Notes: a model not told the origin generated them from the sequence alone. Shown: positions 505 through 61,404, counted from the stretch's first letter. The stretch: DNA of 64,000 bases from an uncultured bacterium (GCA_964387845.1 CAYLXA010000005.1:140955-204954), one strand, 5' to 3'. Program-made: numbers and translations.

Positions 505-513
505 CTTAATATT

Positions 514-590
514 CGGGCTTCATGCTGCATGCTACAAGTTACAAGCTGCAGGTTTGAAGCTTGGAGCCTGAAGCCTGTAGCTTTGAAACT
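514..590. repeat. hairpin element, AAGCYT/GAAGC heptamer-armed class
   Basis: gggcttcatgctgcatgctacaag...ttgaagcttggagcctgaagcctgtagc: arms built of about 7-nt tandem units, inverted; between guaB-like and guaA. Confidence 0.7.
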
Positions 591-2148: not shown

Positions 2149-2279
2149 GTTTAGCGGTTAGCGAATAGCGTTTAGCGCATAGAAAAACAAACGAGACCAT
2201 TTTTGTGAGAACTCATTTTTATTCTTTTCATTTTGTTTTTTCAGTTATACGCTATCCGCTAGACGCTATACGCTAATAG
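2149..2279. repeat. hairpin element, TAGCG-unit class, with 62-nt AT-rich centre
   Basis: gtttagcggttagcgaatagcgtttagcgcatag ... ttatacgctatccgctagacgctatacgctaatag; begins 2 nt after the guaA stop and ends 2 nt before the dnaE start. Confidence 0.7.
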
Positions 2280-20642: not shown

Positions 20643-20984
20643 ATGAAAATCGAAAAGTTTCATATCTACTTAACCGATCTTAATCCGCAAATCGGGACCG
20701 AGCCCGGAAAAATCAGGCCGGTCACCGTGATTCAAACCAACCTGTTAAACAATACCCATCCCAGCACGATTATTTGCCCGATGACGACCAAAGTGGTCAG
20801 GCAGGCAAGGATTTTAAGGGTTCATGTTTCTTCTGCTGAATCGGGACTGAACACAGCTTCTGATATCCTGGTAGATCAAATTCGGGCTATTGATAATCGG
20901 CGGCTTAGGAAACATATTGGAAAGCTGACCTCCCCGCAGGCGAAAGAGCTTCTGGCCAATCTTAAACTTTTAATCTTAGAATAA
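20643..20984 (+). CDS. MazF/PemK-family endoribonuclease toxin
   Basis: IYLTDLNPQIGTEPGKIRPVTVIQTNLLNN...IICPMTTK matches the PemK/MazF core. Confidence 0.75.
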   Translation: MKIEKFHIYLTDLNPQIGTEPGKIRPVTVIQTNLLNNTHPSTIICPMTTKVVRQARILRVHVSSAESGLNTASDILVDQIRAIDNRRLRKHIGKLTSPQAKELLANLKLLILE

Positions 20985-21034: not shown

Positions 21035-22978
21035 ATGTCCATTACGCAATCAACCACGGCCAAACTCCGAATTATTAGTTTCGAAAGCCGTCTGTCCTCA
21101 ACCATGACAGAGCTGATCCACAAAGCCGGCCATGCGCCTATCGCGGCGCCGGCACTGCAGGAAATCCCGCTCGAGAAAAATCCCGAAGCGTTTCAATTAG
21201 GGGAGCGGCTCCTCAATCACGAAATTGATTTCATGATCTTTCTAACGGGTGTCGGCACAAAAGCGCTCTTTGAAACCTTGAGAACCCGTTACAACATGAA
21301 ACAAATCATTGCGGCCTTGAATCAAACCATCATTGTTGCGCGAGGCCCGAAGCCGGTTCAGGTTTTGCAAGATTACGGAATCATGGTTTCGGTCCTGGTG
21401 CCGGAGCCCAATACCTGGCGCGACATTTTGGAAGTTTTAGACTCAGACGAGCATAGCATTTCTCTGATGAAAAGGACTGTCGCGGTCCAAGAATACGGAG
21501 AGGAAAATCCGCAGCTCATCGCCGGATTGGTGGAGCGCGGCGCGCGCGTAATCCGGGTTCCCGTCTACCGGTGGGCGCTGCCGGATGATACCAAGCCGCT
21601 AAAAAATGCGATTCGGACCATCATCGAACACAACGCGGACGCGGTGCTCTTCACAAACTCGGTGCAGGTCAATCATTTATTTCGGCTGGCCTCGGAAATA
21701 GGCCTTGAAAGGCATTTAAAACAGGCCTTTGCCAAAATGGTGATCGCTTCCGTCGGCCCTCATTGTTCTCAAGCGATTGTTGAGCATGGGCTTTCCGTTG
21801 ATATCCAGCCCGAGACGCCGAACATGGAGTCGCTCGTCTTGGAAGTGTCAAAACGCGCGAAGGCCATTTGGGATGAGAAGCAATTACATGAAAGCAAACT
21901 CATGGATTCCGGCATCCGAATGGAATCAGAAAGAGTCCAAAAAAAGGAATTGGTGGAAAGCGTATTTTTAAAAGCGTGCCGGCTTGAAAAAACATCTCAC
22001 ACACCGGTTTGGCTGATGCGCCAAGCAGGGCGCTACATGAAAGAATACCGGCAGCTGCGTGAAAAAATGCCCTTTCTGGAACTTTGCAAAAACCCATCAC
22101 TGTGTGCAGAGGTTACAATTCATGCCCAGGAAACCATCGGAGCGGACGCTGCTATTATTTTTTCGGATATCCTGCTTTTGGTACAGCCGTTTGGCCTGGG
22201 CCTTGAGTATTCGCGGGAAGACGGGCCCGTGATTGACAATGTTATTCACCGCGGATCGCGCATCGATGAACTTCCCGAGATCGAACCGGCCGATTCGCTC
22301 GGATTTGTATATGAAGCGATCCGAAAAACGCGCGAGAATCTGCAGTCCAACATTCCGCTGATCGGGTTTGCCGGAGCACCGTTTACGCTGGCGTCTTACA
22401 TGATTGAAGGCGGCTCATCAAAAGATTTTAGGCGCACAAAGCTATTCATGTATTCCGATGAAGGCCAGTGGCGCGCACTGATGGAAAAATTGGCACGCGC
22501 CGTATCGAAACATCTCAAGGCGCAAATTGAGGCCGGTGCTCAGGCGGTTCAGCTTTTTGACAGCTGGGTCGGTTGTTTAGGCCCCGGCGATTATAAAAAA
22601 TATGTACAGCCGTACTCCAAACAGGTATTTGATTCGCTAGAAGGGCTCGCGCCGACCATTCACTTTGGAACCAACACCGGAAATTTGTTGGAGCTCATGA
22701 AAGAGGCGGGCGGTGATGTAATCGGCGTCGATTTTCGGATCACGTTGGACCAGGCTTGGCGAAGAGTGGGATATTCAAAAGCAGTGCAAGGAAATTTGGA
22801 TCCGCTGGTGCTGCAGTCATCGATTCCTTATATTAATCAGCGTGCACAGGAAATTATCAAGCAGGCCTCCGGACGCCCAGGGCACATTTTCAATTTGGGC
22901 CACGGTGTTTTGCCGGATACGCCTGTTGAAAATGTGATCGCGTTGGTGGATATGGTCCACGAACTCAGTGGTAAGTGA
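21035..22978 (+). CDS. hemE: bifunctional uroporphyrinogen-III synthase (N-term) / uroporphyrinogen decarboxylase (C-term)
   Basis: C-terminal 350 aa: TPVWLMRQAGRYMKEYRQLREK... is the HemE signature; N-terminal 270 aa HemD-like (two-lobed flavodoxin-like; weaker); single ORF of 647 aa. Confidence 0.7.
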   Translation: MSITQSTTAKLRIISFESRLSSTMTELIHKAGHAPIAAPALQEIPLEKNPEAFQLGERLLNHEIDFMIFLTGVGTKALFETLRTRYNMKQIIAALNQTIIVARGPKPVQVLQDYGIMVSVLVPEPNTWRDILEVLDSDEHSISLMKRTVAVQEYGEENPQLIAGLVERGARVIRVPVYRWALPDDTKPLKNAIRTIIEHNADAVLFTNSVQVNHLFRLASEIGLERHLKQAFAKMVIASVGPHCSQAIVEHGLSVDIQPETPNMESLVLEVSKRAKAIWDEKQLHESKLMDSGIRMESERVQKKELVESVFLKACRLEKTSHTPVWLMRQAGRYMKEYRQLREKMPFLELCKNPSLCAEVTIHAQETIGADAAIIFSDILLLVQPFGLGLEYSREDGPVIDNVIHRGSRIDELPEIEPADSLGFVYEAIRKTRENLQSNIPLIGFAGAPFTLASYMIEGGSSKDFRRTKLFMYSDEGQWRALMEKLARAVSKHLKAQIEAGAQAVQLFDSWVGCLGPGDYKKYVQPYSKQVFDSLEGLAPTIHFGTNTGNLLELMKEAGGDVIGVDFRITLDQAWRRVGYSKAVQGNLDPLVLQSSIPYINQRAQEIIKQASGRPGHIFNLGHGVLPDTPVENVIALVDMVHELSGK

Positions 22979-23075
22979 TAAGTGGTAAGTGGTAAGTTTG
23001 GATGAACCAGTCAAACTTGATTAAAATTTTATTTTTACTTATCACTTACAACTTACAACTTACAACTTAAAACTG
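22967..23075. repeat. hairpin element, GTAAGT(G/A) class
   Basis: agtggtaagtgataagtggtaagtggtaag ... cttatcacttacaacttacaacttacaacttaaaactgg; covers the last 4 codons of hemDE and ends 7 nt before hemY. Confidence 0.75.
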
Positions 23076-23081
23076 GAAAAT

Positions 23082-32935: not shown

Positions 32936-33010
32936 GGGCCCTTAGCTCAACCTGGTTAGAGCAGGGCGCTCATAACGCCTTGGTTGGAGGTTCAAATCCT
33001 CCAGGGCCCA
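32936..33010 (+). tRNA. tRNA-Met (CAT anticodon; could be the Ile2 lysidine type)
   Basis: GGGCCCT acceptor paired with AGGGCCC, D arm GCTC/GAGC, anticodon loop CTCATAA, T arm GGAGGTTCAAATCCTCC; G1-C72 pair so not an initiator. Confidence 0.85.
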
Positions 33011-34701: not shown

Positions 34702-34744
34702 CTCTTTTGTGTTATACTCTTTCGGTTCTTTGAGAAAGGCTTTT

Positions 34745-35172
34745 CTCGGTAGATGATCGCCTGCTGCATTTTGCAGTGGGAGGAAAGTCCGAACTTCACA
34801 GGGCAAGGCGCCCCGTAATACGGGGTGGGGCGGGAGCAAATCCCGCTTTAAGGAAAGTGCCACAGAGATTATACATCCGAAGTGGTAAGTGATAAGTGGT
34901 AGGTGGTAAATAGTAAATAAAGGAGTTATTGGCTTCTCATCAACTTAGCACTTACAACTTATCACTTACTACTGGATAAAGGTGAAACGGTGGCGTAAGA
35001 GACCACCGTGTATCGGCGTAAGCTGGTATGCAAGGTAAACCCCGCCTGAAGAAAGATGAAGATCGCGCAAGTTGACTTGTTCAGCTCAGGGCGGCCCGTT
35101 CTGCGCGCGTCTAACAAGATCGAATGACCCGAGGTTGCAAAATCCGGGCTAGACAGATGATCATCGCTTCTT
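34745..35172 (+). ncRNA. rnpB: RNase P RNA (bacterial type A)
   Basis: GGAGGAAAGTCCGAAC...ACAGGGCA (P4 region), AGGAAAGTGCCACAGAG (P10/P11), GGTGAAACGGTGGCGTAAGAGACCACC (P13/P14), CAAGGTAAACCCCGCCTGAAG, ...GGGCTAGACAGATGATCATCGC 3' end; ends approximate. Confidence 0.8.
34881..34973. repeat. GTAAGT-class hairpin embedded in RNase P RNA (forms the P12 helix)
   Basis: agtggtaagtgataagtggtaggtggtaaatagtaaataaagg ... caacttagcacttacaacttatcacttactact, lying between the AGGAAAGTGCCACAGAG and GGTGAAACGGTGGCG conserved blocks. Confidence 0.7.
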
Positions 35173-35173
35173 C

Positions 35174-35258
35174 AGTTGTAAGTGATAAGTGATAAGTGGT
35201 AAGTTGTAAGTTTTAAGAATTCATAAACTTATCACTTAAAACTTACCACTTACAACTG
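35174..35258. repeat. GTAAGT-class hairpin element with CCAGTTGTAAGT...ACTTACAACTGG termini
   Basis: cagttgtaagtgataagtgataagtggtaagttgtaag-ttttaagaattcataa-acttatcacttaaaacttaccacttacaactgg, directly 3' of rnpB. Confidence 0.75.
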
Positions 35259-35305
35259 GGGAAGAAACAGAATTCGGCTTATGCCGAGAAAAGCCTCTCT
35301 TTTTT

Positions 35306-35390
35306 AGTTTTAAGTGATAAGCGTTAAGGGATAAGTTAAAAACTGCATATTTTTGTTTTTCTTACCTCTTACAACTTATCACTTACCACC
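35306..35390. repeat. GTAAGT-class hairpin element (degenerate)
   Basis: agttttaagtgataagcgttaagggataagtt ... cttacctcttacaacttatcacttaccacc. Confidence 0.6.
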
Positions 35391-35435
35391 GAATCCACTT
35401 AATTTCCTCTGCATAGTTATCAGATTATCCTCCTT

Positions 35436-35484
35436 GACAAATCGTATATGTAATGTATTATTTAATATATAGAATGTATTACAT
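35436..35484. promoter_or_regulatory. promoter/operator region of the RHH-PIN pair (TTGACA plus AATGTATTA direct repeats)
   Basis: ttgacaaatcgtatatgtAATGTATTAtttaatatatagAATGTATTAcat upstream of the GGAG RBS. Confidence 0.3.
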
Positions 35485-35496
35485 TAAGGAGACCCT

Positions 35497-35730
35497 ATGA
35501 AACGAAAAGAAAAGCGAGAGGGCTTGACCTCCGTTCAAATCCGACCTCAAATTGCCCGCATGATGGAGAAGTTTGCGCGCCGGGGCCTCAGTAAGAGCGA
35601 GTTAATCAATGAAGCCCTCAGGCAATATTTGATCGAGAAAGAATTTCAGGAACTGCGCAATGAACTGCTTCCTTACGCCCAGGCGAAGGGTATTTATACC
35701 GATGAAGATGTCGAGCGGCTTTTGAAATGA
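35497..35730 (+). CDS. ribbon-helix-helix antitoxin (CopG/VapB-like)
   Basis: VQIRPQIARMMEKFARRGLSKSELINEALRQYL: RHH DNA-binding fold; overlaps the PIN gene by 4 nt. Confidence 0.65.
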   Translation: MKRKEKREGLTSVQIRPQIARMMEKFARRGLSKSELINEALRQYLIEKEFQELRNELLPYAQAKGIYTDEDVERLLK

Positions 35731-36122
35731 AAGTTGTTTTTGACACCAATGTCTTAATCTCAGGTTTTCTGACAACCACCGGCCTTTGCGAGCGCGCACT
35801 GAACATCGGGCTCAAACGCCATGCGGTCATTTTATCTGAGTTTATTCTGAAGGAATTTGGTGAGAAATTGCACCATAAATTAGAAGTGCCGTTAGAGAAG
35901 GTTTTGCGTACAGTTACTTTTTTAAAGAAAAGAACGCTGGTTTTGGACATTCCGAACAACCCAAAAATTGAGTTTTCAGATAAGAAAGATATCCCCATCT
36001 TGAGTCTGATAGAAGCCGCGAAGCCAAATTATTTGGTCACAGGAGATAAGCGTTTGCTTGGCTTAAAGAAGTTTGGCCCAACCCTCATCATCTCCGCCAG
36101 GGAAGGAGTAGAGGTTCTTTAA
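35727..36122 (+). CDS. PIN-domain toxin (VapC-like)
   Basis: MKVVFDTNVLISGFL, ...LVTGDKRLL: acidic PIN residues. Confidence 0.8.
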   Translation: MKVVFDTNVLISGFLTTTGLCERALNIGLKRHAVILSEFILKEFGEKLHHKLEVPLEKVLRTVTFLKKRTLVLDIPNNPKIEFSDKKDIPILSLIEAAKPNYLVTGDKRLLGLKKFGPTLIISAREGVEVL

Positions 36123-37204: not shown

Positions 37205-37280
37205 AGCCACAAGCTTCAGGCTGCAAGCTCCAAGCTTAAGGCTTTAAGCATGAAGCCTGGGGCCTGCAGCTTGAAGCCGC
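37205..37280. repeat. AAGCYT-class hairpin element inside the pyr leader
   Basis: gccacaagcttcaggctgcaagctccaagcttaaggctttaagcatgaagcctggggcctgcagcttgaagccgc, between the attenuator terminator and the pyrR start. Confidence 0.65.
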
Positions 37281-40068: not shown

Positions 40069-40070
40069 TT

Positions 40071-40152
40071 TTAGCGTATAGCGTTCAGCGGATAGCGTAT
40101 AGGAAAGACTATTCAATTTGTTCCTACCCGCTATACGCTAAACGCTATCCGC
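40071..40152. repeat. TAGCG-unit-class hairpin element between pyrC and carA
   Basis: ttttagcgtatagcgttcagcggatagcgtatag-gaaagactattcaatttgttcc-tacccgctatacgctaaacgctatccgcc. Confidence 0.7.
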
Positions 40153-41296: not shown

Positions 41297-41300
41297 ATTT

Positions 41301-41380
41301 GGTATCTAGTATCTGGTATCTAGTATCTCGCTAAAGAATTTTCGCTTGCCAGATATTAGATACGAGATACCAGATACGCG
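41301..41380. repeat. GGTATCT-unit-class hairpin element between carA and carB
   Basis: ggtatctagtatctggtatctagtatctcg-ctaaagaattttcgcttgcc-agatattagatacgagataccagatacgcg. Confidence 0.7.
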
Positions 41381-41393
41381 AAAGATTAGAAGT

Positions 41394-45461: not shown

Positions 45462-45520
45462 TGCTACAAGCTGCAAGCCGCAGGCTTCATGCCTGGAGCT
45501 TGAAGCCTGTAGCCTGAAGC
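45462..45520. repeat. AAGCYT-class hairpin element between pyrK and pyrD
   Basis: ctgctacaagctgcaagccgcaggcttcatgcctggagcttgaagcctgtagcctgaagc. Confidence 0.65.
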
Positions 45521-45527
45521 AAAGAAT

Positions 45528-47348: not shown

Positions 47349-50300
47349 GTGAGGCCCTACTCTTTTTTTCTGCGCGCCATCTCCGCGCTCCTGATTTTTA
47401 CTTTCTCTTTCACTGAAACCATCGCACGCGCTGACGCAGCTCAGACATCGTCGCAGTTAGCGGCGATGCTAGAGCAGTCATCAAACCGGATGGGTTTGAT
47501 GGCCGAAACTATTTCTAGTTTTACGCGCAATAGTTATCTCGCCATCGAAAAATTCGCCAACTCCGTCGATGTCCGTTCCGAACTGCGTTCTCGAGGACTT
47601 GAATTATCTGGCGGTCATAAACCCATACCCCAAAGTGATACTAAAGAGGTAAATAATAATGACAAATCAGAGGCAGGGCATGAGCAGTCAGAAAAAGAAA
47701 TTCAGAGTTACGCTAAAAAATTAAAGGAATCAAAAGGTGATTTAAAGATTATTCGAGAGGCGATTGTTAATTTTCACCGCTTGGGCTATAGCGAAGTGAA
47801 AGTCGCAGAAATGATTAACCAAGTCAATCAAAATCAACCTTATGCACAAATTCAATATTGGTCGGATGAAGTCACCCAATCTACGTTAATCAAACGCTTT
47901 TCACAGCATCGAAAATTAATTAAATCTCTCCTTTGGCTTTTACTCCCGGTTGTTTGTTATTTTTTACCTTATCCAGGCGCGACTGCTTTACTTCTCTTGA
48001 TTTATCACGACGCAATGCACCGGTATCAAGCCGGCTTTTACTTTCTGACTTATTTTCTGGGTGATTTTTGGAATAATCGAATGGAAGATATTCAAAATTT
48101 TCTGGTCAAGAAGTATCACGAGCCCGATTTTAATTTTGAGGGTGATTTGTGGCTAAATCCGGTAGACCGGGCGCATGACCAATTATTCGAAGCCAAAAGG
48201 CAATTTTGGAAAAGCGTCCTTGAAAGCATGAGCGGAGTTTATATGGTCAGCTCGATCCTGGTTTTCCCATGGCTATTTTCAGCCCTGAGAATGCTGATAT
48301 CAGCCCCCATGGTTCTTGTTCAAACAGGCGTTTTTTCGTTCTTGGGCGCAATATCGATTGGTTTCTTCGGGCTAGTTCCTTTACGCGGGCCCCACTTTCA
48401 AGTTACGGCGGCAGATTTGGGCTTGGAGCATGCCGTCGATGTTGAAAGAACGTCCGTGACAGGTCTCCGGTGGCCTCAATTTTCAAACAAGCAGAATGCA
48501 ATGATTGAAGCTGCCCGTTTTTACTGGAATAGAAATCCGATGGTCCTGTATGTTGAGAAGAACCGCGAATCGAAGTTTGAATGGAATAGGCAAATCCGCC
48601 GCGACACTGCAAGCCGTCTTTTAGCCCGCCATTTTTTAACGGTCGTTTTGTTTGTTACGACTGCCTTAAGCACCATTTTATTGATTGCTATCAGCATTAT
48701 TCTTGGCTCAGGCGTTATAGGCGCGGTTGAGTTTGTTATTCAAAAATTCGGCCAGAGTTTTATAACGAATGTGTTGCTGATCGTGGGTTCTTGCTGCTTT
48801 TTTCCGCTTGTGGCCGTTATCATCATCAGCGCGATAGTTGTCGGAAGCGAACAAAGCATTGCTGGAGCATGGCAAAAAGCCCGGGCAGATATTAAAAGCT
48901 TGAAGAAAAACGTTTTCCTTAATCCGAATCAGTCTGATGAAAAATTTTGGAAAAATTTAATTAAGCAACTAAAGCGGATCAGTAAAGAAGAGGCGCCCTT
49001 TAGCGATATTAGTTTCCCTGAGTCGATTGAGCGGTTGATCCGTGATTTGTCATCTCTCAAAGAGGATCATTCGGAATTAATTCCGCTGCATGAGGCTCTC
49101 GCTACAGGCAAGGAGGGCACCGAATATCAAATCAAAGGGCAGGCGGCTCTGACTTCTGATCGACATTCGGATGATCCTTCAACGAAAGTCAGGGCAGAAC
49201 TCAGGACGACGAATGAACGGCTGATTTGGAAGGCAATTGCTCAATTTGGAATTCCGGAGTTTTATCAAGAGCAAGCCTATTTGTTTCTAAGCGGCTTGCT
49301 GGAAATTAATCAGAGTCAGTGGGGAACACCTTTCGAAGACGCAATCAGTAGACTTTCTCAAGTACAAGTTGAACAAATTAAATCTTCCATTTCTTTCGAA
49401 CCCATTGTCATGTCCACTACTTCTTTGGTTAGACGCACGGTTCGTTTTTCGGTTTATATGGCCGGTGTTATCGTTTTGGCGTATGCCGCCGGGGCTGCTT
49501 TGGCACGAGACATCAATTTGTTTAAACTTTTCAGCCAGATCGGAAAACAAAAACTTCCGGGGCCGGAGCAGATCGACATAGGGTTCGCGGCCATATTTTT
49601 ATTCACAATGTTTATCGGATTACCGTTTGTGATTACGCGTTTTCAAAGGTGGCTTGACGCCAAAATAAAACCTTATCCCATTTCTTACGATCTCAGGCGC
49701 ACAATCTTAAATGAATTGTTCGTCAAGCAAGGCCTCATGTCAACGGATGATGCGGAAGAATTGACCCGAAGAAAATATCGATCGGAATTGCGGACGGAGT
49801 GGGCAGATCAAATTAAGAGTTTGCTTTTAAAAGATTTTCCGTTCTTGGAACTCGATTTTTCTGAAAATGGTTACCTGTTTCGCGCTATCAGAAGTGGTTT
49901 GCGTGATGGATTGTCAAGAGGATCGTTCTCTTACCTAAATGACGGAGGCGTTGCGGCCGGTTGGCAAGAAAAGCATCTTGTCTATTTTGTTTCCGAAGAT
50001 CCAAATGATGCCCTTGATGTTGCTGAATTTCAAAACGGATTTCCGGATAACGCAGTCGTTATTTTCCCGAGCAAATTATTTCACGATGAAATGAATGCAG
50101 GCCGTGCTGCCATCATGACCACCCATGGGCTTTCCGGGACGTTGACGGGTATCAAATGGCCTCTCATGACGAACCCGGTTACGATTCAAGATTCTGCTTT
50201 TATTATTGTTACTCCTGAAACCAAACAATATTTGGACAATCTGCTGGTCAATGGTCAGGCAAGCGGCGAAGAAGAAAAATTAAGACTCCGGCTTTTGGAA

Positions 50301-53300
50301 TATCAGAAGCAGGGGATTTATCAAAAAATTGTTGCCTTGAATTTTGAACCAAAAGGCATGGCAGCGGATGCGATTCAAGAGAAGTTTAAGGCATTTTTAT
50401 TGAGCAAAAGCATTCAGCCGGCGCAAGCGATTGATTCTGAAATATATCCAAACTTGGCCGAAATTCAAAGTGATGGCGTAAACAAAAGGCGCTCCGAGCT
50501 GCGGTCCAGGGAATTTGTTAAATTTAGCGAGCTTGGATCTGCAATCGCTGACTATATTGATCTTTTTCGCAAGAGAAACGGAAGGTTTAGTCCATCGGTT
50601 TTAAGAGCGGTTGCTGATCTTGATTTCGGAACCGAGCGGCAATTTGTTAATGTAGCGTCTGTGCCGTTGAGAAACGGTTTCGTACCCGATCCTCAAGCTT
50701 TTGGCAGGGCCGTTGTTGAGGGGATCGTAAGAGAACTTCCGTTTGAAGTACGGCCCATCGAAAAGTTCAGTTTTGCGTATAAAAAGCATGCGTTCAGAAT
50801 TCGCATGGAAACGGGGAATCAGCAGACGCAGAATAAAGAAGCACATTCGGAGTTGAGGGCAAGGAAAGTTAGAAATGATACGAGCGAGACCAAGTTACAC
50901 CCTAGAGCCGATCGTTTCCATTCATTACGTTCTCTCAAGCGATTTTTCTTAGGCCTACTGATAATTGGCTTAGCTGCGAGCATGTTTATTTGGACACACG
51001 ATCATGACCGATTATCTCTGGATCCCTCATTCATAAAGGTGGCCGTTCATTCTGGCATTCTGGCAATTGTTTCAACTTATATTTTTTGGTGGATGAAGCG
51101 GTATTTGACGACCGGTTTTTTGTTAAGAGAAAAAATCTACAAATTATCAAGGTCATCACCCACATACGAATTCGAATTTGGGAATGTCCGCAATAAGCTT
51201 CTCATTTTAGAAACGCCCGACGGAGGCAAGCATCAACTCTATCTTGATGCGAACCGAAATATTCGCATCATGTCTTTTCGTGAGTCCGGTCAGGGGCTCG
51301 TTAAATTTCTTCTGCCGTACGCGCTAAGCATCAGGCCTGACAAACAACTTTTGATCTATAAAAATAATATCGCATTGCAGGTAATCGGCCCGCAGAAAAT
51401 AAGAATTAAACTGCTCAGCAGATCATCAACGGTTCCGATTATTCGCGAAAGCCGCTTAAACAAAATACAGAGAATTATGATCATGCATCCGATTATCATC
51501 GGAGTGGCTCTCGGTTATGTGATGATGTTGCATAGATTCATGTATTTATTTGCTCATGCGTTTGCTTCGCAAATAATCGGCGGTCACGTCAATTGCATCC
51601 AGTGTATCGAGGAGTTTGAATTTGTTGTAAACACATGGACCGACTATCTCCTGTATGGGATTCCGATTGGCTATCCAGTTGCCAGCGTAATACTAAAGCT
51701 TATTTTTTTCGGTTATAAGAAATATATGCGAGCAAGCAGGGCATTCATTGCCCCCACGCAAGAATTGCCGGACAAACCGGTGCTGTTTGACGAAACATTC
51801 GCAAAAAATTCGGGGCAGCAGTTTGTGTTGAGCGTTCGTCCATTTAAAGAAAGGCAGGTTGGACGTGTGATCCGAAAATTAAAAACCATACGCGAATCCG
51901 GTTTGCAAGTAAGCGATCAGACGATTCAAAATTTATACCGGCTTGTCCGGACAGTCCAGTCCGACCCGTTTGAGGGGCCGGACATTGAATTTGAATTAAT
52001 GCATTGGCTAGAAACCAGCGCAGACTTAAAAGCAATTGCAGCCATCGTCACCGGCTGGTTTCAAATTCGCGGTGACCATACGACCAAGATCAATAGAATT
52101 TTAGAACAGCGATTTAAGTTGAACAAAAAACAAATTGAAAAGCTGAAATATTTGTCTGAATCCTACAGTATCCCGCTAGAGGAAACCGCTATTGATCCGC
52201 CAAGTTCCATGGAACCTATTCCGTACACAGATCAATTAAAAGACCGAACCATTTACCAAATATTCGGGCAAGAGTTTATGGATGAGGCCCTTGAGCGGAT
52301 TGACTCTATCGATGCCAATAAGTTAAAAGATTGGGTGCAAACAGTTTTTAATAAAAACTTCTCGTCAGATTCCAAAGTGCCCATACGCTCTATTTTTCTG
52401 TATGGAAGTTATATTTACGGATCCATCGACGAACCGCGGGATCTTGATTTGATTGCCGTTGTGGAAGGCGATTCGCTTGAGAAGCCCATTCCGGATGAGC
52501 GGACAATACCTAAGAATGTTTTTCGGTCGATGCGCGGGCGTTCGGTCAATTCTGCAAATATTTATTTTTTGACACGTAAACAATTGCAAACAAGCAAGCG
52601 CGCGATTCACGCAGCCAGCGTGGGTATTTTGCTTAAGGCAAAAAATTTATATGACGAACCCCTGAATAGTATTAGAAATTCTGATCAGAAGCAGCTGTTT
52701 TATGCCGCCAGCGAATTAAGTGATGCGTTTGATTTCATCAAGAAAGCTGGCAAAGTAAACAAAATGATCGATTCTGCGAGAATTTTCAACTGGAAAGGAT
52801 TCAGGCGATTGATGGAAGTCGTTCTTTATATTAATGCAATTGACCTGTCTTTATCAATTCCCATTTCTGAAATCGTGACGATGAACAACCGCATGGAAGA
52901 TTACATCGTAAATAAGACAAAAGGCCGCAAAATAACCGAAGGGTTAAAGCGCCTTTACAGGATGGTCCGCACAGCGGTTTTATTAACCCGCGTTTCGCTC
53001 GTTTGGCGGCAAATGGAGGAATGGGGCGGCGGTGAGCATGCGAAGCAAGCGCAGCGTTCGGAATTGCGCAGAAAAATTGAGACAGGAACAGACAAACTTC
53101 TGGCAGAAGTGGACCGCGGCGTGGCGACCGTGATTTTCAATGATCTGCCGAATCGCAATGCCATGAACGGGGAAATGTTCGAAGCGGTCCCGCGTGTTTT
53201 GTTTAAATTAGACAACGATCCCGATGTGAAGCTTTTGGTTTTACGCGGCGCAGAAGACCCCAAAACCCATGAACATCATTTGGCCGGCGGCAACATTGAA

Positions 53301-56300
53301 GAACGTTACCAAATTATGGACCGGGGCGATCACAAGGAATTAGAAAAGCAAATTCTTGAGAAATACGAAATGCTTGCCGCGATTCACTATTTTTCGAAAC
53401 CAAAAATTGCATTGATCGACGGATTTGCAGTAGGCGGCGGGCTTGCAGCTGCGTTCGGCAGTCATTATGTTTTGGCGACGGAGAAGGCAAAATTCGGAAC
53501 ACCCGAAACCAAAACCGTGGGTTCCTATATGGATGGCGCCAACGCGGCATTCATGGCAGACCGGTTTGGATTAGATTATGTAGCGAATGAATTATTTATC
53601 ACAGGTCGGCATGAGGAAGCCAGTGCCCTCATTGATCAATTCGATCATCAGGTTCCGCAGTTAGGCGACATGTATGCGGCTTATTATGGTTATACCGGTT
53701 CGCCCATTCCTTTGGACGAAGCAATATATTACGGGCTCGTCCATTCAACCATACAAGATGCTAAAGCTACAGAAGAAACGCTCAAAGAGTTGGTGAGCTC
53801 TCAACCAAATCTTTCTCCCGGCGAACTCTTAAACAAAGTTAATGACACATTTCCGCGTTCTCAATTGACGGAAACAGAACGCCAAGCCGTCAAAAAGCGC
53901 CGTGATTTGATGGCGAAATACTTTCAAGTGGAAGAAGCGCGTTTCAGTGGCGTGATTAATTTTATGATCGACCGGCTTTCGAACGAAACCTTGAGGAGCA
54001 AAATGGATCCGGACGAGCTTCAGTTCGTGATCGATACACTTACCAAAATCTCAAAAAATTCGCCATTTGGTGTTCTTGCGACCTCGCATATGATTCGCGA
54101 TCACGCGTTTCTCCATGGCCATTTCATACCGGTCAGTCTCAGCCAAATTTACGAACAAGCGTTTGCCCGTACTTTAGAAAGAATGAAAACGTCCGAATTG
54201 GTGAATGGAAAGTTTCCGTTCGTGCGAATGGGTATGTTGTTGCGATCCACGCACGACTCGGTCTTGCTGCGAGGCGTTTTTATTCGCGAAATCGACACCA
54301 CGCTCAAAGTATTCGGAATTGATGAGGAATTTAGAAATTCGCTTGCCCGGGCTGATGTGTTAGAAGGGCTCCGTTCGTTTTTGGAACGCCGAAAACCTGA
54401 CTGGCCTTCAAAGCAGCATGATGGTGATTTATCAAAATTATGGGGCCGGATCGAAGAAACTTTGAAAAAAGTCGAGGGCCATCGTTCCGAACTTAGGCGT
54501 GAAGCAATTATTGATGACGCTCTTGGCGGCGCTTTTGGCGGTAGAGAAGGTATTGGTAAACTAATCCAGCGATGGCAAATAGAGAAAGCGTTATTAGTAT
54601 TTCCATTTTATTTGGCCTCCTTGGCCCGCTCTTGGTTAGGAAATAAAGCAATTGCAGTTACAATGAGCAGCCCCATCGTCGCAACCAAGCCTATTTTCCA
54701 GGTGAACGAAAAATCACTAAATAACCGAGTTGCCAATCCTGCTGTTCCGATATATTGGGCAAACGTCATGCTGGATCTTGCCATGAATTCTGTTTTTTCC
54801 AGGCTTGCTTTCTTCATTACAGTAACATACTCCTCTCCTCATGTAAATCTTGGCTTTTTGAGCCGGCAGCACCCTATCATAAATATTATATTAAGTCAAT
54901 ATTTATTTTATTTATATAAAATATTTGAAAGGAGCCAGCAGGACCAAAAAAAGGCCGAATACGAAGCCGCCGGACAAGTCAACCGTTCCGGACTGCGTGT
55001 GCCCGATTGGCTGCTTTATTTTGGTTTTGGGATTTTGGCCGTACTGGTTGTGGGAATCGCTTCTTTATTTTATTACACCATCCGGCATCCGGATGGTGAC
55101 TCAAACGAATCCAGCTCCCCGGAAACATCGGGCTCTGCCCAGGATCAAAATGATCATTTGGGCCCACCGAGGTCTGAGTTAAGAAAGTTTGATGAATCAA
55201 ACAATGCGCCAAGGTCGCGCATCCGGTGGATTTTGAATTCGATTTGGAATGCGCAAGGCGGAAATTTAGACCGTGAAGTATGGCAGCCCAGCCTGGCGCA
55301 TGCCCGCCGTTTGATCAAACGTTTCCGCCGCGTTCCCGGCATGGGCGAGATCATTTTAGAACTGGGCAAAAATTTCAGGAACCACAAAGCTTTTGATGCA
55401 GTCCTCGCCGAATTATTTGCGGCCGAGTATTTGGAGAAACACGTGCCGGGTTCTAAAGTGATTGGCTTAAGGATGAAAGCCCGGCATGGTGAAATCGATA
55501 TTGTGCTGCGCATCGGCCCAGTTACTTCCCAAGGAAAGCCAAAGGCCGGCGCCGTCAAGCTTGCGCCGGGCATTTACCTGGCCGAAGTCAAATACGGCTA
55601 TGGCAATGATCCTCAATTGGTCCAGTGGAAACAGGCGAAACTGAAAACTCAGTTGAAAAGTTATTCGAGCGTCGCTTCGATCCTTACGCAGGCAGGCCTT
55701 GACGTTCAGGGCCTAATCCTGGTGAGCGCGGAAAGCCCGGCTTATGTTGCGAGCAATCTCCGCCGCCGTGCGTATTGGCGCGCTTCCAATGTTTCAAAGG
55801 GTTTCAGTCTTAAAAATCTTTTGATCGCCTTTGACCCTTTGAGTTATCCGGACAAGCGGCAAATTGTTCCTCCTCAAAATATTGACGTCAGGCGCTGGGC
55901 ATCGGTCACTTCAACACCTGCTGCTGTTTTTAAAAAGCCGATTCCCGAATCCGCAAATCTTGCTTTGAGCCGGCCGTTGAGGCCAAGAAAAAAGACAGCG
56001 CCTGATGCCGGCGATCCAAACCGCTCGGCGCGATTACCCAGAAATTTTCTGGAAACCGTTGCGCAATTAAAAGAAGCTTTGAACGATCATGGATTGAAAA
56101 AAGAGGCAATCGAAGCCGTGTTGTCTTCACTTGCCAGCCAGGCACATGGTTTTAAAATCGAAGGCTTAGCGCTGAAAGAAAATGACGGCCTTCATTATGT
56201 ACGCGGCCTCAGAGAGGAAATTCGAAGCGGTAATCCGTTCTGGATGGTCCGGCTTCACCGTGCAAACAGAGAAAAATTTGAATCCACACTTATCGCGCGC

Positions 56301-57515: not shown

Positions 57516-57598
57516 CCAGTTGTAAGTTGTAAGTGATAAGTGTTAAGTGATTGAAAAAATTAATGCATACCACTTACAACTTACCACTTATCACTTAA
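57516..57598. repeat. GTAAGT-class hairpin element directly after the giant gene stop
   Basis: ccagttgtaagttgtaagtgataagtgttaagtgattg-aaaaaattaatgcat-accacttacaacttaccacttatcacttaat. Confidence 0.75.
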
Positions 57599-57643
57599 TA
57601 CTTTTCCTGCTATAATTCCCACTTCTTATTTCAAGGAGAAAGC

Positions 57644-59303: not shown

Positions 59304-59873
59304 ATGAAAAAGAGCGGCCAATCCCTGAAAGGGAAAACCATTTTGCTGGGCTTGAGCGGAAGCATCGCGCTTTACCGTTCCTGTGATCTGGTTCGCGAGC
59401 TCAAGTCACAGGGCGCCGATGTGATCTGTATCATGACAAAATCGGCTCAGCAATTTGTGACGCCTCTTACTTTCCAGGCTTTAAGCGGCCGCAAAGTTTA
59501 CACCGACCCTTTTTCCGGTGAAGAAGATTACGCGGTTCTGCACACAACACTCGCCGACAAAGCCGATTTGATTTTGATTTGTCCGGCCTCTGCGAACATT
59601 ATCGCGCGCCTCGCGGCCGGCATGGCGGATGACATGGTGACTTCGGTCGTGCTGGCGAGCAAGGCAAAAATTCTTGTGGCGCCTGCCATGAACGACAACA
59701 TGTTCGCCAACAAAATCACGCAGGATAATATCCAAAAATTGAAGAAAATCGGTTATCAATTTGTCGAACCCACCGAAGGCGACCTGGTCTGCGGCCGCGT
59801 TGGTATGGGCCATATCGCGGAACAGGGTACGATCCTCGAATACGTTCAAAAAGTAGTAAGTGGTAAGTTTTAA
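59304..59873 (+). CDS. coaC: phosphopantothenoylcysteine decarboxylase (flavoprotein; CoaC half of CoaBC)
   Basis: KGKTILLGLSGSIALYRSCDLVRELKSQGADV...PAMNDNM; the last 6 codons (VVSGKF) and the stop lie inside the GTAAGT-type hairpin element. Confidence 0.85.
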   Translation: MKKSGQSLKGKTILLGLSGSIALYRSCDLVRELKSQGADVICIMTKSAQQFVTPLTFQALSGRKVYTDPFSGEEDYAVLHTTLADKADLILICPASANIIARLAAGMADDMVTSVVLASKAKILVAPAMNDNMFANKITQDNIQKLKKIGYQFVEPTEGDLVCGRVGMGHIAEQGTILEYVQKVVSGKF

Positions 59874-59973
59874 GTGGTAAGTCAAAAATAATGAATAATG
59901 CAAATTCCTTCCTTTTCTTAATTCTTTTGCTTATCACTTACCACTTACCACTTACCACTTATCACTTACAACT
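59853..59973. repeat. GTAAGT-class hairpin element separating coaC and coaB
   Basis: gtagtaagtggtaagttttaagtggtaagtc-(58-nt AT-rich loop)-cttatcacttaccacttaccacttaccacttatcacttacaactg; contains the coaC stop. Confidence 0.75.
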
Positions 59974-59979
59974 GTACTC

Positions 59980-60621
59980 ATGAAACCCCACCTTCTCGTC
60001 ACGGCCGGCCCGACGCGCGAAATGCTGGATCCCGTTCGCTTTTTGTCGAACGTATCAACCGGCGTGATGGGCTATGAAATTGCAAAAGCCGCAAAAAGAA
60101 AAGGTTTCCGCGTGACATTGATCAGCGGGCCCGTCAGTTTAAAAGCACCACATGGTGTCCGGCTCGTTTCCGTGATTTCTGCTCAGGATATGGAAAGGGA
60201 AGTGAAAAAATATTTCCGATCTGCGCAAGCGCTCATCATGACTGCCGCCGTTTGCGATTATACGCCGGCAAAACACCAGAAGCACAAAATCAAGCGGATT
60301 CATACACATCGGATGGTGTTCAAGCAGACGAAAGACATTCTGCAAGCCGTTTCTAAAATGAAAAGGAGGCAGTATGTTGTCGGCTTCTGCCTCGAAACCG
60401 AGGATTTGCGTAAGAACGCAATCCGCAAACTCCGGTCTAAAAAACTGGATTTGATTGTTGCGAATTCCTATACACGGTCGCAGAACCCGTTTGGCAGAAA
60501 TAAAACCTCTGTTCTTTTAATTGATAAAGATTTAAGCGAGAAGAGAGTTTCCAATATCAGCAAACCGCGCTTTGCGGCGAGGCTCGTTGCTTGTGTCCGG
60601 AATCAGCTTAAAAAGAGTTGA
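59980..60621 (+). CDS. coaB: phosphopantothenate-cysteine ligase (CoaB half of CoaBC)
   Basis: LLVTAGPTREMLDPVRFLSNVSTGVMGYEIAKAAKRKG...: ATP-grasp-like CoaB; start is 7 nt after the end of the hairpin element. Confidence 0.85.
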   Translation: MKPHLLVTAGPTREMLDPVRFLSNVSTGVMGYEIAKAAKRKGFRVTLISGPVSLKAPHGVRLVSVISAQDMEREVKKYFRSAQALIMTAAVCDYTPAKHQKHKIKRIHTHRMVFKQTKDILQAVSKMKRRQYVVGFCLETEDLRKNAIRKLRSKKLDLIVANSYTRSQNPFGRNKTSVLLIDKDLSEKRVSNISKPRFAARLVACVRNQLKKS

Positions 60622-61326: not shown

Positions 61327-61398
61327 GGCACGGTAGCAAAGTGGTAATGCACGGGTCTGCAAAACCTGTATACGGCGGTTCGATTCCGCCCCGTGCCT
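61327..61398 (+). tRNA. tRNA-Cys (GCA)
   Basis: Acceptor GGCACGG paired with CCGTGCC, anticodon loop CTGCAAA, T arm GGCGGTTCGATTCCGCC, U73 discriminator, CCA encoded (to 61401). Confidence 0.85.
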
Positions 61399-61404
61399 CC
61401 ATGA

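What the first reader, a model, noticed from the sequence alone, without database searches (positions are those of the whole stretch)
34745..35260. RNase P RNA whose P12 helix is built from the GTAAGT repeat element, with two more copies immediately downstream
Seen in sequence: the conserved type-A blocks of rnpB are present and collinear, but the variable P12 position (between ...GCCACAGAG and GGTGAAACGGTGGCG) is occupied by a 93-nt GTAAGT-class repeat hairpin. A second element abuts the 3' end of the RNA and a third lies 50 nt further on. Inference: either the repeat family colonised a tolerant helix of an essential ribozyme, or rnpB is a hotspot for these elements. This shows they are transcribed and tolerated in structured RNA.
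Basis: partly seen in the sequence, partly recalled or inferred. Interest (0 to 1): 0.5.

Follow-up and report, generated by a model that had tools for sequence, protein, structure and literature searches.

The report
RNase P RNA carrying heptamer-repeat hairpins
An intact RNase P ribozyme gene of an Omnitrophota bacterium has two outer helices (P12 and P19) built from ~95-nt hairpins of 7-base tandem repeats that also fill the genome's intergenic spacers; this parallels the repeat-extended P12 known from cyanobacteria, but in another phylum and at a second site.

Summary
Rfam RNaseP_bact_a matches window 34741-35296 (+) end to end (183.6 bits, gathering score 100). The 93-nt repeat hairpin (34881-34973) forms the distal part of P12. 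The "second element" does not abut the 3' end. It lies inside the RNA (35167-35264), between the P2 and P4 3' strands, which is the P19 position. Only the third element (35303-35393) is outside the RNA. The unit is a heptamer (NTAAGTN), not a hexamer.

The window holds at least 12 heptamer-arm hairpins with four different cores. All lie in non-coding gaps, so rnpB is not a statistical hotspot (P = 0.08 and 0.38).

Relatives are Omnitrophota. Two lineages (L001, L004) carry inserts at the same two sites with other cores (TAAGG; TAAGC and CAGG). The arms covary with period 7: U-A, G-C and C-G at the same unit position. A close relative (L088, LptG 90% identical) has short native P12 and P19, so turnover is fast.

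The closest precedent is the STRR-extended P12 of heterocystous cyanobacteria (Vioque 1997). Verdict: a real, intact rnpB and a new variant of a known kind. Expression, processing and the origin of the elements remain untested.

The parts
34741..35296 (+). rnpB, bacterial type-A RNase P RNA, 556 nt
   Evidence: Rfam RF00010 full-length match, 183.6 bits. P1 pairs UUUUCUCGG (34741-34749) with CCGAGAAAA (35284-35292). P4 pairs AAG(U)CCGAA (about 34784-34792) with UUCGGCUU (35273-35280), read directly from the sequence.
34710..34718 (+). Candidate extended -10 promoter element (TGTTATACT) upstream of rnpB
   Evidence: Read directly from the sequence. TATAAT-like boxes sit at the same distance in L001 and L004. 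The consensus scan did not call it, so this is inference only.
34873..34981 (+). P12 helix as a whole: base ACAUCC..GGAU plus the heptamer hairpin
   Evidence: Placement by the covariance model and the alignment with relatives.
34881..34973 (+). Heptamer-repeat hairpin forming distal P12. The 5' arm has (N-TAAGT-N) units and the 3' arm their complements, around a 30-nt AT-rich loop region.
   Evidence: RNA fold -43.6 kcal/mol, z = -7.6. TRF period 7. Sense fold -42.3 against antisense -28.8. 97.5% of cells paired, with 6 compensatory pairs across 3 lineages.
35159..35165 (+). P2 3' strand (GAUCAUC), immediately upstream of the second element
   Evidence: Covariance-model alignment.
35167..35264 (+). 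Heptamer-repeat hairpin at the P19 position (between P2 3' and P4 3'). Base CUUC..GAAG, arrays 35174-35217 and 35225-35257.
   Evidence: The covariance model places it as an insert between model positions 335 and 336. Fold -48.7 kcal/mol, z = -10.6. Sense -47.4 against antisense -39.9. 89.6% paired with 10 compensatory pairs. Relatives have a short native hairpin here.
35267..35281 (+). CR-V / P4 3' strand ACAGAAUUCGGCUUA
   Evidence: Covariance-model alignment. Invariant in all relatives.
35299..35305 (+). U-tract directly after the P1 3' strand, the likely end of the transcript
   Evidence: Read directly from the sequence. A U-run at the same place occurs in L002, L003, L004, L083 and L088. 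Its function is inferred.
35303..35393 (+). Third TAAGT heptamer hairpin, outside the RNA, between rnpB and the promoter of the RHH-PIN operon
   Evidence: Fold -23.6 kcal/mol, z = -4.6, so it is less well paired than the two internal ones. A hairpin sits at the same place in L001 (TAAGT/TAAGG), L088 (CAAGC), L018 and L035.
22965..23076 (+). TAAGT heptamer hairpin in the hemD/uroD | amine-oxidase gap
   Evidence: The orthologous gap in L088 holds a hairpin of another core, CGTATCT.
57518..57604 (+). TAAGT heptamer hairpin after the 3388-aa ORF
59850..59972 (+). TAAGT heptamer hairpin between the CoaC-domain and CoaB-domain ORFs
2150..2278 (+). Heptamer hairpin, TAGCG core
40070..40152 (+). Heptamer hairpin, TAGCG core (pyrC | carA gap)
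41298..41382 (+). Heptamer hairpin, GTATCT core (carA | carB gap)
505..585 (+). Heptamer hairpin, CAAGC/GAAGC core
37208..37280 (+). Heptamer hairpin, CAAGC core, upstream of pyrR; absent at this site in L001 and L088
45462..45521 (+). Heptamer hairpin, CAAGC core (pyrK | pyrD gap)

Best explanation
Window 34741-35296 (+) is a complete and most likely functional type-A RNase P RNA gene of an Omnitrophota bacterium.

Two peripheral hairpins are not the short native stem-loops seen in a close relative. These are P12 in the specificity domain and P19 between the P2 and P4 3' strands. Each is a ~93-98-nt hairpin. Its 5' arm is 4-6 tandem 7-nt units (N-TAAGT-N) and its 3' arm is the complementary array.

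The hairpins belong to a genome-wide class of heptamer-arm hairpins. The 64-kb window holds at least 12, with cores TAAGT, TAGCG, GTATCT and CAAGC. They fill intergenic spacers and are the Omnitrophota counterpart of cyanobacterial STRR sequences.

Shown here:
- their placement in P12 and at the P19 site;
- the intact catalytic core;
- the fact that they must be co-transcribed;
- their sense-strand-specific stability;
- the period-7 compensatory covariation across lineages;
- presence/absence among close relatives.

Inferred:
- They are tolerated because they coaxially lengthen solvent-exposed, naturally variable helix tips.
- Inside the ribozyme, selection keeps them as clean helices.
- The arrays grow, shrink and change core by replication slippage of the 7-nt unit. 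The two arms are kept complementary by selection and/or hairpin-templated correction.
- They are essentially passengers rather than functional parts of RNase P.
For: Placement and intact core:
- The covariance model gives a full-length match of 183.6 bits, and no non-standard pair is flagged in P1-P5 or P7-P11; it flags a few in P12, P14, P15 and P16. P4 and P1 can only form with strands lying 3' of the second element.
- Orthologues sit in conserved lptG-rnpB-pyrR synteny. L001 is 551 nt and has inserts at the same two sites. L004 (identical to L085 and L087) is 637 nt and has inserts at P12 and P19. L002, L003, L083, L084, L086 and L088 are about 400 nt with short P12 and a short or absent P19.

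RNA-level helix constraint:
- P12: 97.5% of cells paired, 6 pairs with double changes, 0 of 500 shuffles as high. Columns 11, 18, 25 and 32 read U-A, G-C and C-G in the three lineages.
- P19: 89.6% paired, with 10 pairs showing double changes.
- The internal hairpins fold at -42 and -47 kcal/mol as sense RNA, against -29 and -40 as antisense. Each has 5 G.U pairs. Most intergenic copies show no such bias.
- The inserts evolve faster than the core: 54-69% identity against 83-88% between the window and L001.

Genome-wide class:
- 25 of 48 TRF rows have period 7, and all 12 elements fold as hairpins.
- Independent assemblies from NCBI, ENA, JGI and Logan agree, so this is not an assembly artefact.

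Precedent:
- STRR sequences lie within rnpB in heterocystous cyanobacteria (title of Vioque 1997, seen).
- One paper states that P12 is dispensable there (PMC2858038).
- STRRs are 7-bp repeats that form intergenic hairpins (PMC2670836).
- P12 and P19 were left unaligned for lack of sequence conservation (PMC4264200).
- Heptanucleotide repeats are the commonest long simple repeats and are attributed to slippage (PMC4679880).
Against: - There are no expression or activity data.
- Only 64 kb of the genome was seen, so a second, insert-free rnpB cannot be excluded.
- The L15 GGU motif is absent (GUCUAA). It is also absent in insert-free L088, so the loss is unrelated to the inserts.
- Origin by in-situ slippage is not demonstrated. 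The same TAAGT core with similar CAGT..ACTG end units occurs at six loci. TAAG-type hairpins also occur in a distant marine Omnitrophota (L009). Both facts fit spread between loci.
- In window/L001 compared with L088 the whole P12 and P19 differ, including the helix bases. A simple tip insertion or expansion does not describe the change.
- Whether the inserts were gained or lost is unresolved.
Confidence: 0.7

Rival explanations
1. The hairpins are copies of a mobile, non-autonomous element (MITE/REPIN-like). It inserts into hairpin loops or non-coding DNA, and P12, P19 and the 3' flank of rnpB were hit independently.
For: - The same TAAGT core and similar terminal units (CAGT(G/T)G ... CAACTG) occur at six loci.
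- Presence/absence differs among close relatives. One example is the CAAGC element upstream of pyrR, which is found only in the window. Another is the rnpB inserts, which are absent in L088.
- TAAG-type hairpins occur in distant Omnitrophota (L009).
- The elements sit at helix tips, as hairpin-loop targeting would predict.
Against: - Copies are not alike in length, unit number or unit order, and the arms are unequal.
- No target-site duplications were seen.
- No transposase was found among 20 small ORFs scanned. That scan was not exhaustive.
- At the same rnpB sites the core differs between lineages in register and in every unit. Array turnover explains this more easily than re-insertion.
- At least four unrelated cores share only the 7-nt period.
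Confidence: 0.25
2. The inserts behave like rRNA intervening sequences. The long duplexes are cut out of the primary transcript (for example by RNase III). The mature RNase P RNA would then be two or three non-covalently associated fragments.
For: - P12 and P19 carry 17-18 bp uninterrupted duplexes within 30-40 bp helices, which is the size of an RNase III substrate.
- They sit at the tips of variable helices, as rRNA intervening sequences do (established knowledge).
- Selection for clean pairing is compatible with a processing signal.
Against: - No RNA data exist.
- To my knowledge no naturally fragmented bacterial RNase P RNA has been described. I recall that the cyanobacterial precedent was analysed as an intact RNA, but that paper is not held and I could not read it.
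- Pairing conservation is equally explained by avoidance of misfolding.
Confidence: 0.1
3. The extended helices are functional additions to RNase P in this lineage, for example a docking platform for a protein, an added stabiliser, or a regulator of enzyme level.
For: - Both inserts are retained with compensatory changes in window, L001 and L004.
- The internal copies are the best-paired of all 12 elements.
- Omnitrophota rnpB often carries helix expansions, for example in L004 P14 and in L006, L007 and L012.
Against: - Close relative L088 and most other Omnitrophota do without them.
- The sequence core is free to change between TAAGT, TAAGG, TAAGC and CAGG, which argues against a sequence-specific partner.
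- The same elements lie in ordinary intergenic DNA.
- P12 is reported to be dispensable in cyanobacteria (PMC2858038).
Confidence: 0.1
4. The locus is a decaying rnpB pseudogene or an assembly artefact created by repeats.
For: - The bit score is about 50 bits lower than in insert-free L088 (183.6 against 233.4).
- The L15 GGU motif is missing.
Against: - The score loss comes from the insert states. All conserved regions and the P1, P2 and P4 pairings are intact.
- The GGU loss is shared with insert-free L088.
- The inserts show compensatory evolution.
- The same architecture occurs in independent assemblies from four sources.
- Synteny is conserved.
Confidence: 0.03

Closest known systems
STRR-extended helix P12 of RNase P RNA in heterocyst-forming cyanobacteria (Vioque 1997, Nucleic Acids Res 25:3471; title seen, paper not held)
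   Same: A genome-wide family of short tandem heptamer repeats lies inside rnpB and lengthens the variable helix P12 of an otherwise normal type-A RNA. P12 is described as dispensable there (PMC2858038).
   Different: The phylum is Omnitrophota and the units are different (N-TAAGT-N and variants). A second insert lies at P19 in the catalytic-domain periphery. Related lineages carry different cores at the same sites, with period-7 covariation. Activity was tested in cyanobacteria (my recollection) but not here.
Cyanobacterial STRR intergenic hairpins (7-bp repeats; PMC2670836; PMC2408588 Table 3)
   Same: Several heptamer cores occur per genome. They are located in intergenic regions, the arrays can form hairpins, and their function is unknown (transcript stability or termination has been proposed).
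   Different: The sequences and the host phylum differ. Here nearly every copy is an inverted pair of arrays forming an 80-130-nt hairpin, and none is followed by a U-tract.
REP / BIME / REPIN extragenic palindromes of proteobacteria
   Same: They are abundant intergenic hairpin-forming repeats lying within operons, between co-oriented genes. They turn over quickly between relatives.
   Different: REPs are 20-40-nt imperfect palindromes with a fixed sequence and no internal 7-nt periodicity, and they are linked to RAYT transposases. No such gene was seen here, although the scan was partial.
Intervening sequences (IVS) in helices 25 and 45 of bacterial 23S rRNA
   Same: Extended hairpins replace the tips of variable helices of an essential structured RNA. 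Their distribution among close relatives is sporadic.
   Different: IVSs are excised by RNase III and are not built of tandem heptamers. Excision is untested here.
TAACTGA heptamer direct repeats of Beggiatoaceae, cyanobacteria and Bacteroidetes (MacGregor 2015, PMC4679880)
   Same: They are intergenic heptamer arrays containing stop codons, with a patchy phylogenetic distribution.
   Different: Those are almost all direct repeats just upstream of start codons, with only one indirect repeat among 170 sets. They are not inverted hairpins and are not reported inside structured RNAs.

Membership tests
Bacterial RNase P RNA class A (Rfam RF00010) | Covariance-model score above the curated gathering score over the full model | tested here: met
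   183.6 bits against 100, model positions 1-367 of 367, E = 1e-57.
Bacterial RNase P RNA class A (Rfam RF00010) | P4 pseudoknot between CR-I (GAGGAAAGUCCG) and CR-V (ACAGAAnnCGGCUUA), and closure by P1/P2 | tested here: met
   AAG(U)CCGAA pairs with UUCGGCUU, which is compensatory relative to the consensus CCGGG/CCCGG. P1 has 9 perfect base pairs (17 at 94%, I21). P2 is GAUGAUC/GAUCAUC.
Bacterial RNase P RNA class A (Rfam RF00010) | Type-A helices P13, P14 and P18 and the conserved joining regions J11/12 and J12/13 | tested here: met
   All aligned at high posterior probability; one non-standard pair is flagged in P14 and none in P13 or P18.
Bacterial RNase P RNA class A (Rfam RF00010) | L15 GGU motif that pairs with the tRNA 3'-CCA (common but not universal) | tested here: not met
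   The window, L001 and L088 have GUCUAA where L002-L004 have AGGU. The motif is known to be absent in cyanobacteria and many CPR bacteria (PMC8172020).
Bacterial RNase P RNA class A (Rfam RF00010) | Catalytic activity on pre-tRNA and expression of the RNA | not testable with these tools
   This needs RNA-seq or Northern data and an in vitro cleavage assay.
STRR (short tandemly repeated repetitive sequences, cyanobacteria) | Tandem heptanucleotide unit, many copies per genome, mostly intergenic | tested here: met
   TRF period 7 in 25 of 48 rows. There are 12 elements in 64 kb, all in non-coding gaps.
STRR (short tandemly repeated repetitive sequences, cyanobacteria) | The canonical STRR unit sequences, and a host among the heterocystous cyanobacteria | tested here: not met
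   The units here are N-TAAGT-N, N-TAGCG-N, GTATCT-N and N-CAAGC-N. The host is Omnitrophota by LptG homologues. I recall the cyanobacterial units as CCCCAGT, TTGGTCA and CAACAGT, but I did not verify this.
STRR (short tandemly repeated repetitive sequences, cyanobacteria) | Presence inside rnpB, lengthening P12 | tested here: met
   Precedent: title of Vioque 1997.
REP/REPIN elements | Fixed 20-40-nt imperfect palindrome and an associated RAYT (Y1 transposase) gene | tested here: not met
   The copies vary in unit number and order. No Y1 transposase was found among 20 ORFs scanned. Only part of one contig was examined.
rRNA-type intervening sequence (IVS) | Post-transcriptional excision without religation | not testable with these tools
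   This needs RNA-level data.
Intrinsic terminator | GC-rich hairpin followed directly by a U-tract | tested here: not met
   No terminator-like site was called at any of the three rnpB-locus hairpins. No U-run follows the P12, P19 or 3'-flank hairpin. In L035 a canonical terminator precedes the heptamer hairpin.

The most novel reading that the evidence does not exclude
The heptamer-arm hairpins are a phylum-wide, actively turning-over element class that targets or arises at hairpin loops. Inside rnpB their long duplexes would be excised like rRNA intervening sequences. This bacterium would then run on a naturally fragmented two- or three-piece RNase P RNA.
Probability: 0.08. Interest if true: 0.75.

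Novelty: new variant of a known kind. Interest (0 to 1): 0.42.

Why it matters
- **Tolerance of an essential ribozyme.** The locus shows that RNase P RNA can carry about 190 nt of repeat-derived duplex at two sites at once, one of them next to the P4 catalytic core. Insert-bearing and insert-free alleles occur in bacteria whose LptG is about 90% identical. That gives a natural experiment on which positions of RNase P RNA accept expansion.
- **Repeat evolution.** The period-7 compensatory pattern (U-A, G-C and C-G in every unit) is a clean case of concerted evolution of both arms of an RNA helix. It makes the question of how tandem-repeat hairpins evolve directly testable.
- **Annotation.** Such inserts cost about 50 bits of covariance-model score.
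- **Distribution.** STRR-like heptamer hairpins are extended from cyanobacteria to Omnitrophota. This suggests a general mutational or selfish process rather than a cyanobacterial peculiarity.

Tried and rejected
**Searches that led nowhere**
- Exact look-ups of the window's own LptG and of P0001 found no contig, so I could not extend the source genome beyond the window.
- The single metagenome scan, with a P12-base pattern, returned only the organism already held as L004.
- The genome-collection scan holds no closer relative than 62% LptG identity. The closer relatives came from the Logan and JGI look-ups.
- Vioque 1997 is not held. I cite only its title and what other papers say about it.
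- Literature searches for Omnitrophota together with RNase P or repeats found nothing relevant.

**Ideas rejected**
- Hotspot: binomial tests were not significant.
- Terminator role for the hairpins: there are no U-tracts, and in L035 a canonical terminator precedes the hairpin.
- Pseudogene or assembly artefact: the core is intact, the inserts covary, and independent assemblies agree.
- A sequence-specific binding site as the common denominator: four or more unrelated cores share only the 7-nt period.

**Other negative results**
- The consensus promoter scan did not call an rnpB promoter. The extended -10 is my own reading of the sequence.
- A partial Pfam scan of 20 ORFs found no transposase.

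Full report
**1. What is at the coordinates**

An Rfam scan of the whole window finds one RNase P RNA: class A, RF00010, at 34741-35296 (+). It scores 183.6 bits against a gathering score of 100, E = 1e-57, over model positions 1-367 of 367. The conserved blocks are collinear. These are GAGGAAAGUCCG, CCACAGAGA, GGUGAAACGG, GUAAGAG, AAGGUAAACCCC, CUAGACAGAUGAUCAUC and ACAGAAUUCGGCUUA.

P1 pairs UUUUCUCGG with CCGAGAAAA; with its extension it reaches 17 bp at 94% (I21). P4 pairs AAG(U)CCGAA with UUCGGCUU. That pairing carries compensatory changes relative to the consensus CCGGG/CCCGG.

The covariance model places two large inserts.
- The first lies between ACAGAGA... and GGUGAAA, which is P12.
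- The second lies between the P2 3' strand (35159-35165) and the P4 3' strand (35267-35281). This is the place where some RNase P RNAs have helix P19.

Only the third element (35303-35393) is external. It begins about 7 nt after the RNA, overlapping a U-tract (35299-35305) that follows the P1 3' strand in the relatives too.

**2. The repeat**

The unit is 7 nt, N-TAAGT-N (TRF period 7).
- GTAAGTGATAAGT with up to 2 mismatches occurs 33 times against 0.63 expected.
- TAAGN3TAAGN3TAAG occurs 36 times against 0.10 expected.

These hits fall into six elements: 22965-23076, 34881-34973, 35167-35264, 35303-35393, 57518-57604 and 59850-59972. Each has the G/T-rich array first and the complementary array second on the + strand, around an AT-rich loop. 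All six fold as long hairpins, with z-scores from -4.3 to -10.6.

TRF also shows period-7 arrays with other cores. On reading and folding, these too are inverted pairs forming hairpins.
- TAGCG: 2150-2278 and 40070-40152
- GTATCT: 41298-41382
- CAAGC/GAAGC: 505-585, 37208-37280 and 45462-45521

The window therefore holds at least 12 heptamer-arm hairpins, and 25 of 48 TRF rows have period 7. None of the three at the rnpB locus is followed by a U-tract, and no terminator-like site is called there.

**3. Is rnpB a hotspot?**

A greedy ORF cover leaves about 4.4 kb (6.8%) non-coding. All 12 elements lie in such gaps, and the rnpB gap (34702-35496, 795 nt) is 18% of that DNA. Three of six TAAGT elements there gives P = 0.077, and three of twelve hairpins gives P = 0.375. 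rnpB is simply the largest stretch of non-protein-coding DNA in the window.

**4. Evidence that the internal hairpins exist as RNA helices under constraint**

The two internal copies are the most stable and the best paired, at -43.6 and -48.7 kcal/mol. They fold much better as sense RNA than as antisense: -42.3 against -28.8, and -47.4 against -39.9. Each has five G.U pairs. Most intergenic copies show no such bias. In both the window and L001, the copy just outside the RNA is far less well paired.

**5. Relatives**

The flanking LptF/G permease identifies the organism as Candidatus Omnitrophota. The lptG-rnpB-pyrR synteny is conserved.

| Locus | LptG identity to window | rnpB | P12 and P19 |
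|---|---|---|---|
| L001 | 89% | 551 nt, 189 bits | Inserts at both sites, core TAAGG; also a third hairpin 3' of the gene |
| L004 (= L085 = L087; three assemblies) | 60% | 637 nt | P12 insert with TAAGC units, P19 insert with CAGG units, plus a 129-nt non-heptamer P14 insert |
| L002, L003, L083, L084, L086 | 60-65% | about 400 nt | Short P12; short or absent P19 |
| L088 (439-kb JGI contig) | 90.4% (92.7% to L001) | 405 nt, 233.4 bits | Short GC-rich P12 and P19 resembling those of distant L002 |

The rnpB core of L088 clearly groups with the window and L001, and it shares their loss of the L15 GGU motif. The inserts are therefore polymorphic within a tight clade.

Orthologous intergenic gaps in the window and L088 carry hairpins of different types, or none:
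- hemD | amine-oxidase gap: TAAGT in the window, CGTATCT in L088
- 3' of rnpB: TAAGT in the window, CAAGC in L088
- upstream of pyrR: an element only in the window

**6. Covariation**

I aligned the P12 hairpins of the window, L001 and L004 and counted pairs on the window's fold. 97.5% of cells are paired, 6 pairs show changes on both sides, and 0 of 500 shuffles score as high; slid controls give 30-44% paired. The covarying columns 11, 18, 25 and 32 are spaced by 7. They read U-A in the window, G-C in L001 and C-G in L004. The same position of every unit has changed on both arms.

P19 gives 89.6% paired and 10 pairs with double changes, again with period 7. Between the window and L001 the inserts are 54-69% identical, against 83-88% for the core.

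With three sequences, and a structure taken from one of them, these counts are supportive rather than conclusive. The periodic three-state pattern is nevertheless hard to obtain by chance.

**7. Interpretation**

*Shown.* The gene is a complete type-A rnpB whose P12 and P19 are heptamer-repeat hairpins. The elements belong to a genome-wide class. They must be transcribed with the RNA. They show sense-strand-specific pairing and compensatory change. Close relatives lack them.

*Inferred.*
- They are tolerated because they lengthen exposed, naturally variable helices. PMC4264200 left P12 and P19 unaligned for lack of sequence conservation, and PMC2858038 describes P12 as dispensable in cyanobacteria.
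- The arrays turn over by slippage of the 7-nt unit. Heptanucleotides are the commonest long simple repeats in prokaryotes and are attributed to slippage (PMC4679880). Selection or hairpin-templated correction would keep the arms complementary.
- They are passengers rather than functional parts of the enzyme.

*Open.*
- Whether copies spread between loci. The same core and similar end units occur at six loci, and TAAG-type hairpins occur in the distant L009.
- Whether the inserts were gained or lost.
- Why the whole P12 and P19, including the helix bases, differ between window/L001 and L088. Recombination between rnpB alleles is possible, since similarities within the trio are mosaic.

**8. 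Comparison with what is known**

The closest precedent is the presence of STRR heptamer repeats within rnpB of heterocyst-forming cyanobacteria (Vioque 1997; only the title was seen). From memory, they extend helix P12 there. Cyanobacterial STRRs are 7-bp repeats that form intergenic hairpins of unknown function (PMC2670836; PMC2408588).

The present case differs in four ways: the phylum, the unit sequences, the second insert at P19, and the lineage-specific cores at fixed sites.

It is not a REP/REPIN element, because the palindrome is not fixed and no RAYT gene was seen in a partial scan. It is not an intrinsic terminator. Whether it behaves like an rRNA intervening sequence, excised by RNase III, cannot be tested here. 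I found no paper describing these elements in Omnitrophota.

**9. Verdict**

The locus is a real, intact rnpB. It is a new variant of a known kind and of moderate interest.

Noticed in passing
window 505-585, 2150-2278, 37208-37280, 40070-40152, 41298-41382, 45462-45521: Six further intergenic hairpins have arms made of tandem heptamers with cores other than TAAGT (CAAGC/GAAGC, TAGCG, GTATCT). Heptamer-arm hairpins are therefore a general class in this genome, not one repeat family.
   Followed up: partly
window 59304-60621: The TAAGT hairpin at 59850-59972 sits exactly between an ORF with only the CoaC flavoprotein domain (59304-59873, PF02441) and an ORF with only the CoaB/DFP domain (59980-60621, PF04127). 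In many bacteria these two domains are fused in one CoaBC protein. The upstream stop codon lies inside the repeat, and no Shine-Dalgarno sequence is visible before the downstream ATG.
   Followed up: no
window 22965-23000, 34879-34920, 35172-35218, 35304-35340, 57518-57552, 59850-59884: Every TAAGT 5' arm carries stop codons in all three + strand frames, because TAA recurs every 7 nt. The TAGCG and GTATCT arms have stops in 2-3 frames and the CAAGC arms in 0-1. The arrays may act as stop-in-any-frame modules ahead of a hairpin.
   Followed up: partly
window about 35103-35118 (L15/P16 region of rnpB); also L001 and L088: The L15 GGU motif that pairs with the tRNA 3'-CCA is replaced by GUCUAA in the window, L001 and L088, while L002-L004 keep AGGU. 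Of the two tRNA genes in the window, tRNA-Met (32936-33010) lacks an encoded CCA and tRNA-Cys (61327-61401) has one.
   Followed up: partly
window 35434-36122 and 20643-20984: A strong sigma-70-like promoter (TTGACA-16-TATTAT, 35434-35461) precedes an RHH antitoxin (35497-35730) and PIN toxin (35727-36122) pair just downstream of rnpB. The same pair is present in L002 but absent in L001 and L088. A MazF/PemK toxin ORF lies at 20643-20984.
   Followed up: partly
L004 3940-4070; L006, L007, L012 rnpB: Other Omnitrophota RNase P RNAs carry large non-heptamer helix expansions. L004 has a 129-nt insert in P14, giving an RNA of 637 nt. L006 and L007 have 76-87-nt inserts in P13 and extra sequence in P15-P17. 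L012 has an insert of about 145 nt near P12/P13.
   Followed up: no
L088 15680-15880 and 17030-17140: The close relative carries a different long inverted-repeat element, with ends GTCATTGCGAG...CTCGCAATGAC, in the pyrC|carA and carA|carB gaps. The window has heptamer hairpins in those same gaps. L088 also has a GTTTAAT heptamer hairpin between lptG and rnpB (11160-11240) that the window lacks.
   Followed up: no
window 35299-35305 and 34710-34718; L002, L003, L004, L083, L088: A U-run directly follows the P1 3' strand of rnpB in the window and in relatives. The long-range P1 helix plus this U-tract might serve as the transcript end. An extended -10-like TGTTATACT lies about 23 nt upstream of P1.
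   Followed up: no
window 47349-57515: A single ORF of 3388 aa on the + strand ends at the start of a TAAGT hairpin. It contains an internal period-7 array (56915-56943, GCAAGCC). I did not examine it.
   Followed up: no
L018 1573-1790; L035 2486-2590; L009 1429-1509: More distant Omnitrophota (48-52% LptG identity) also have heptamer-arm hairpins. In L018 one lies just 3' of rnpB (CGTGTCT/ACGAGAC arms around a 150-nt loop). In L035 one follows a canonical terminator (TTAGTAG). L009 has a TAAGG-type hairpin elsewhere in the locus.
   Followed up: partly
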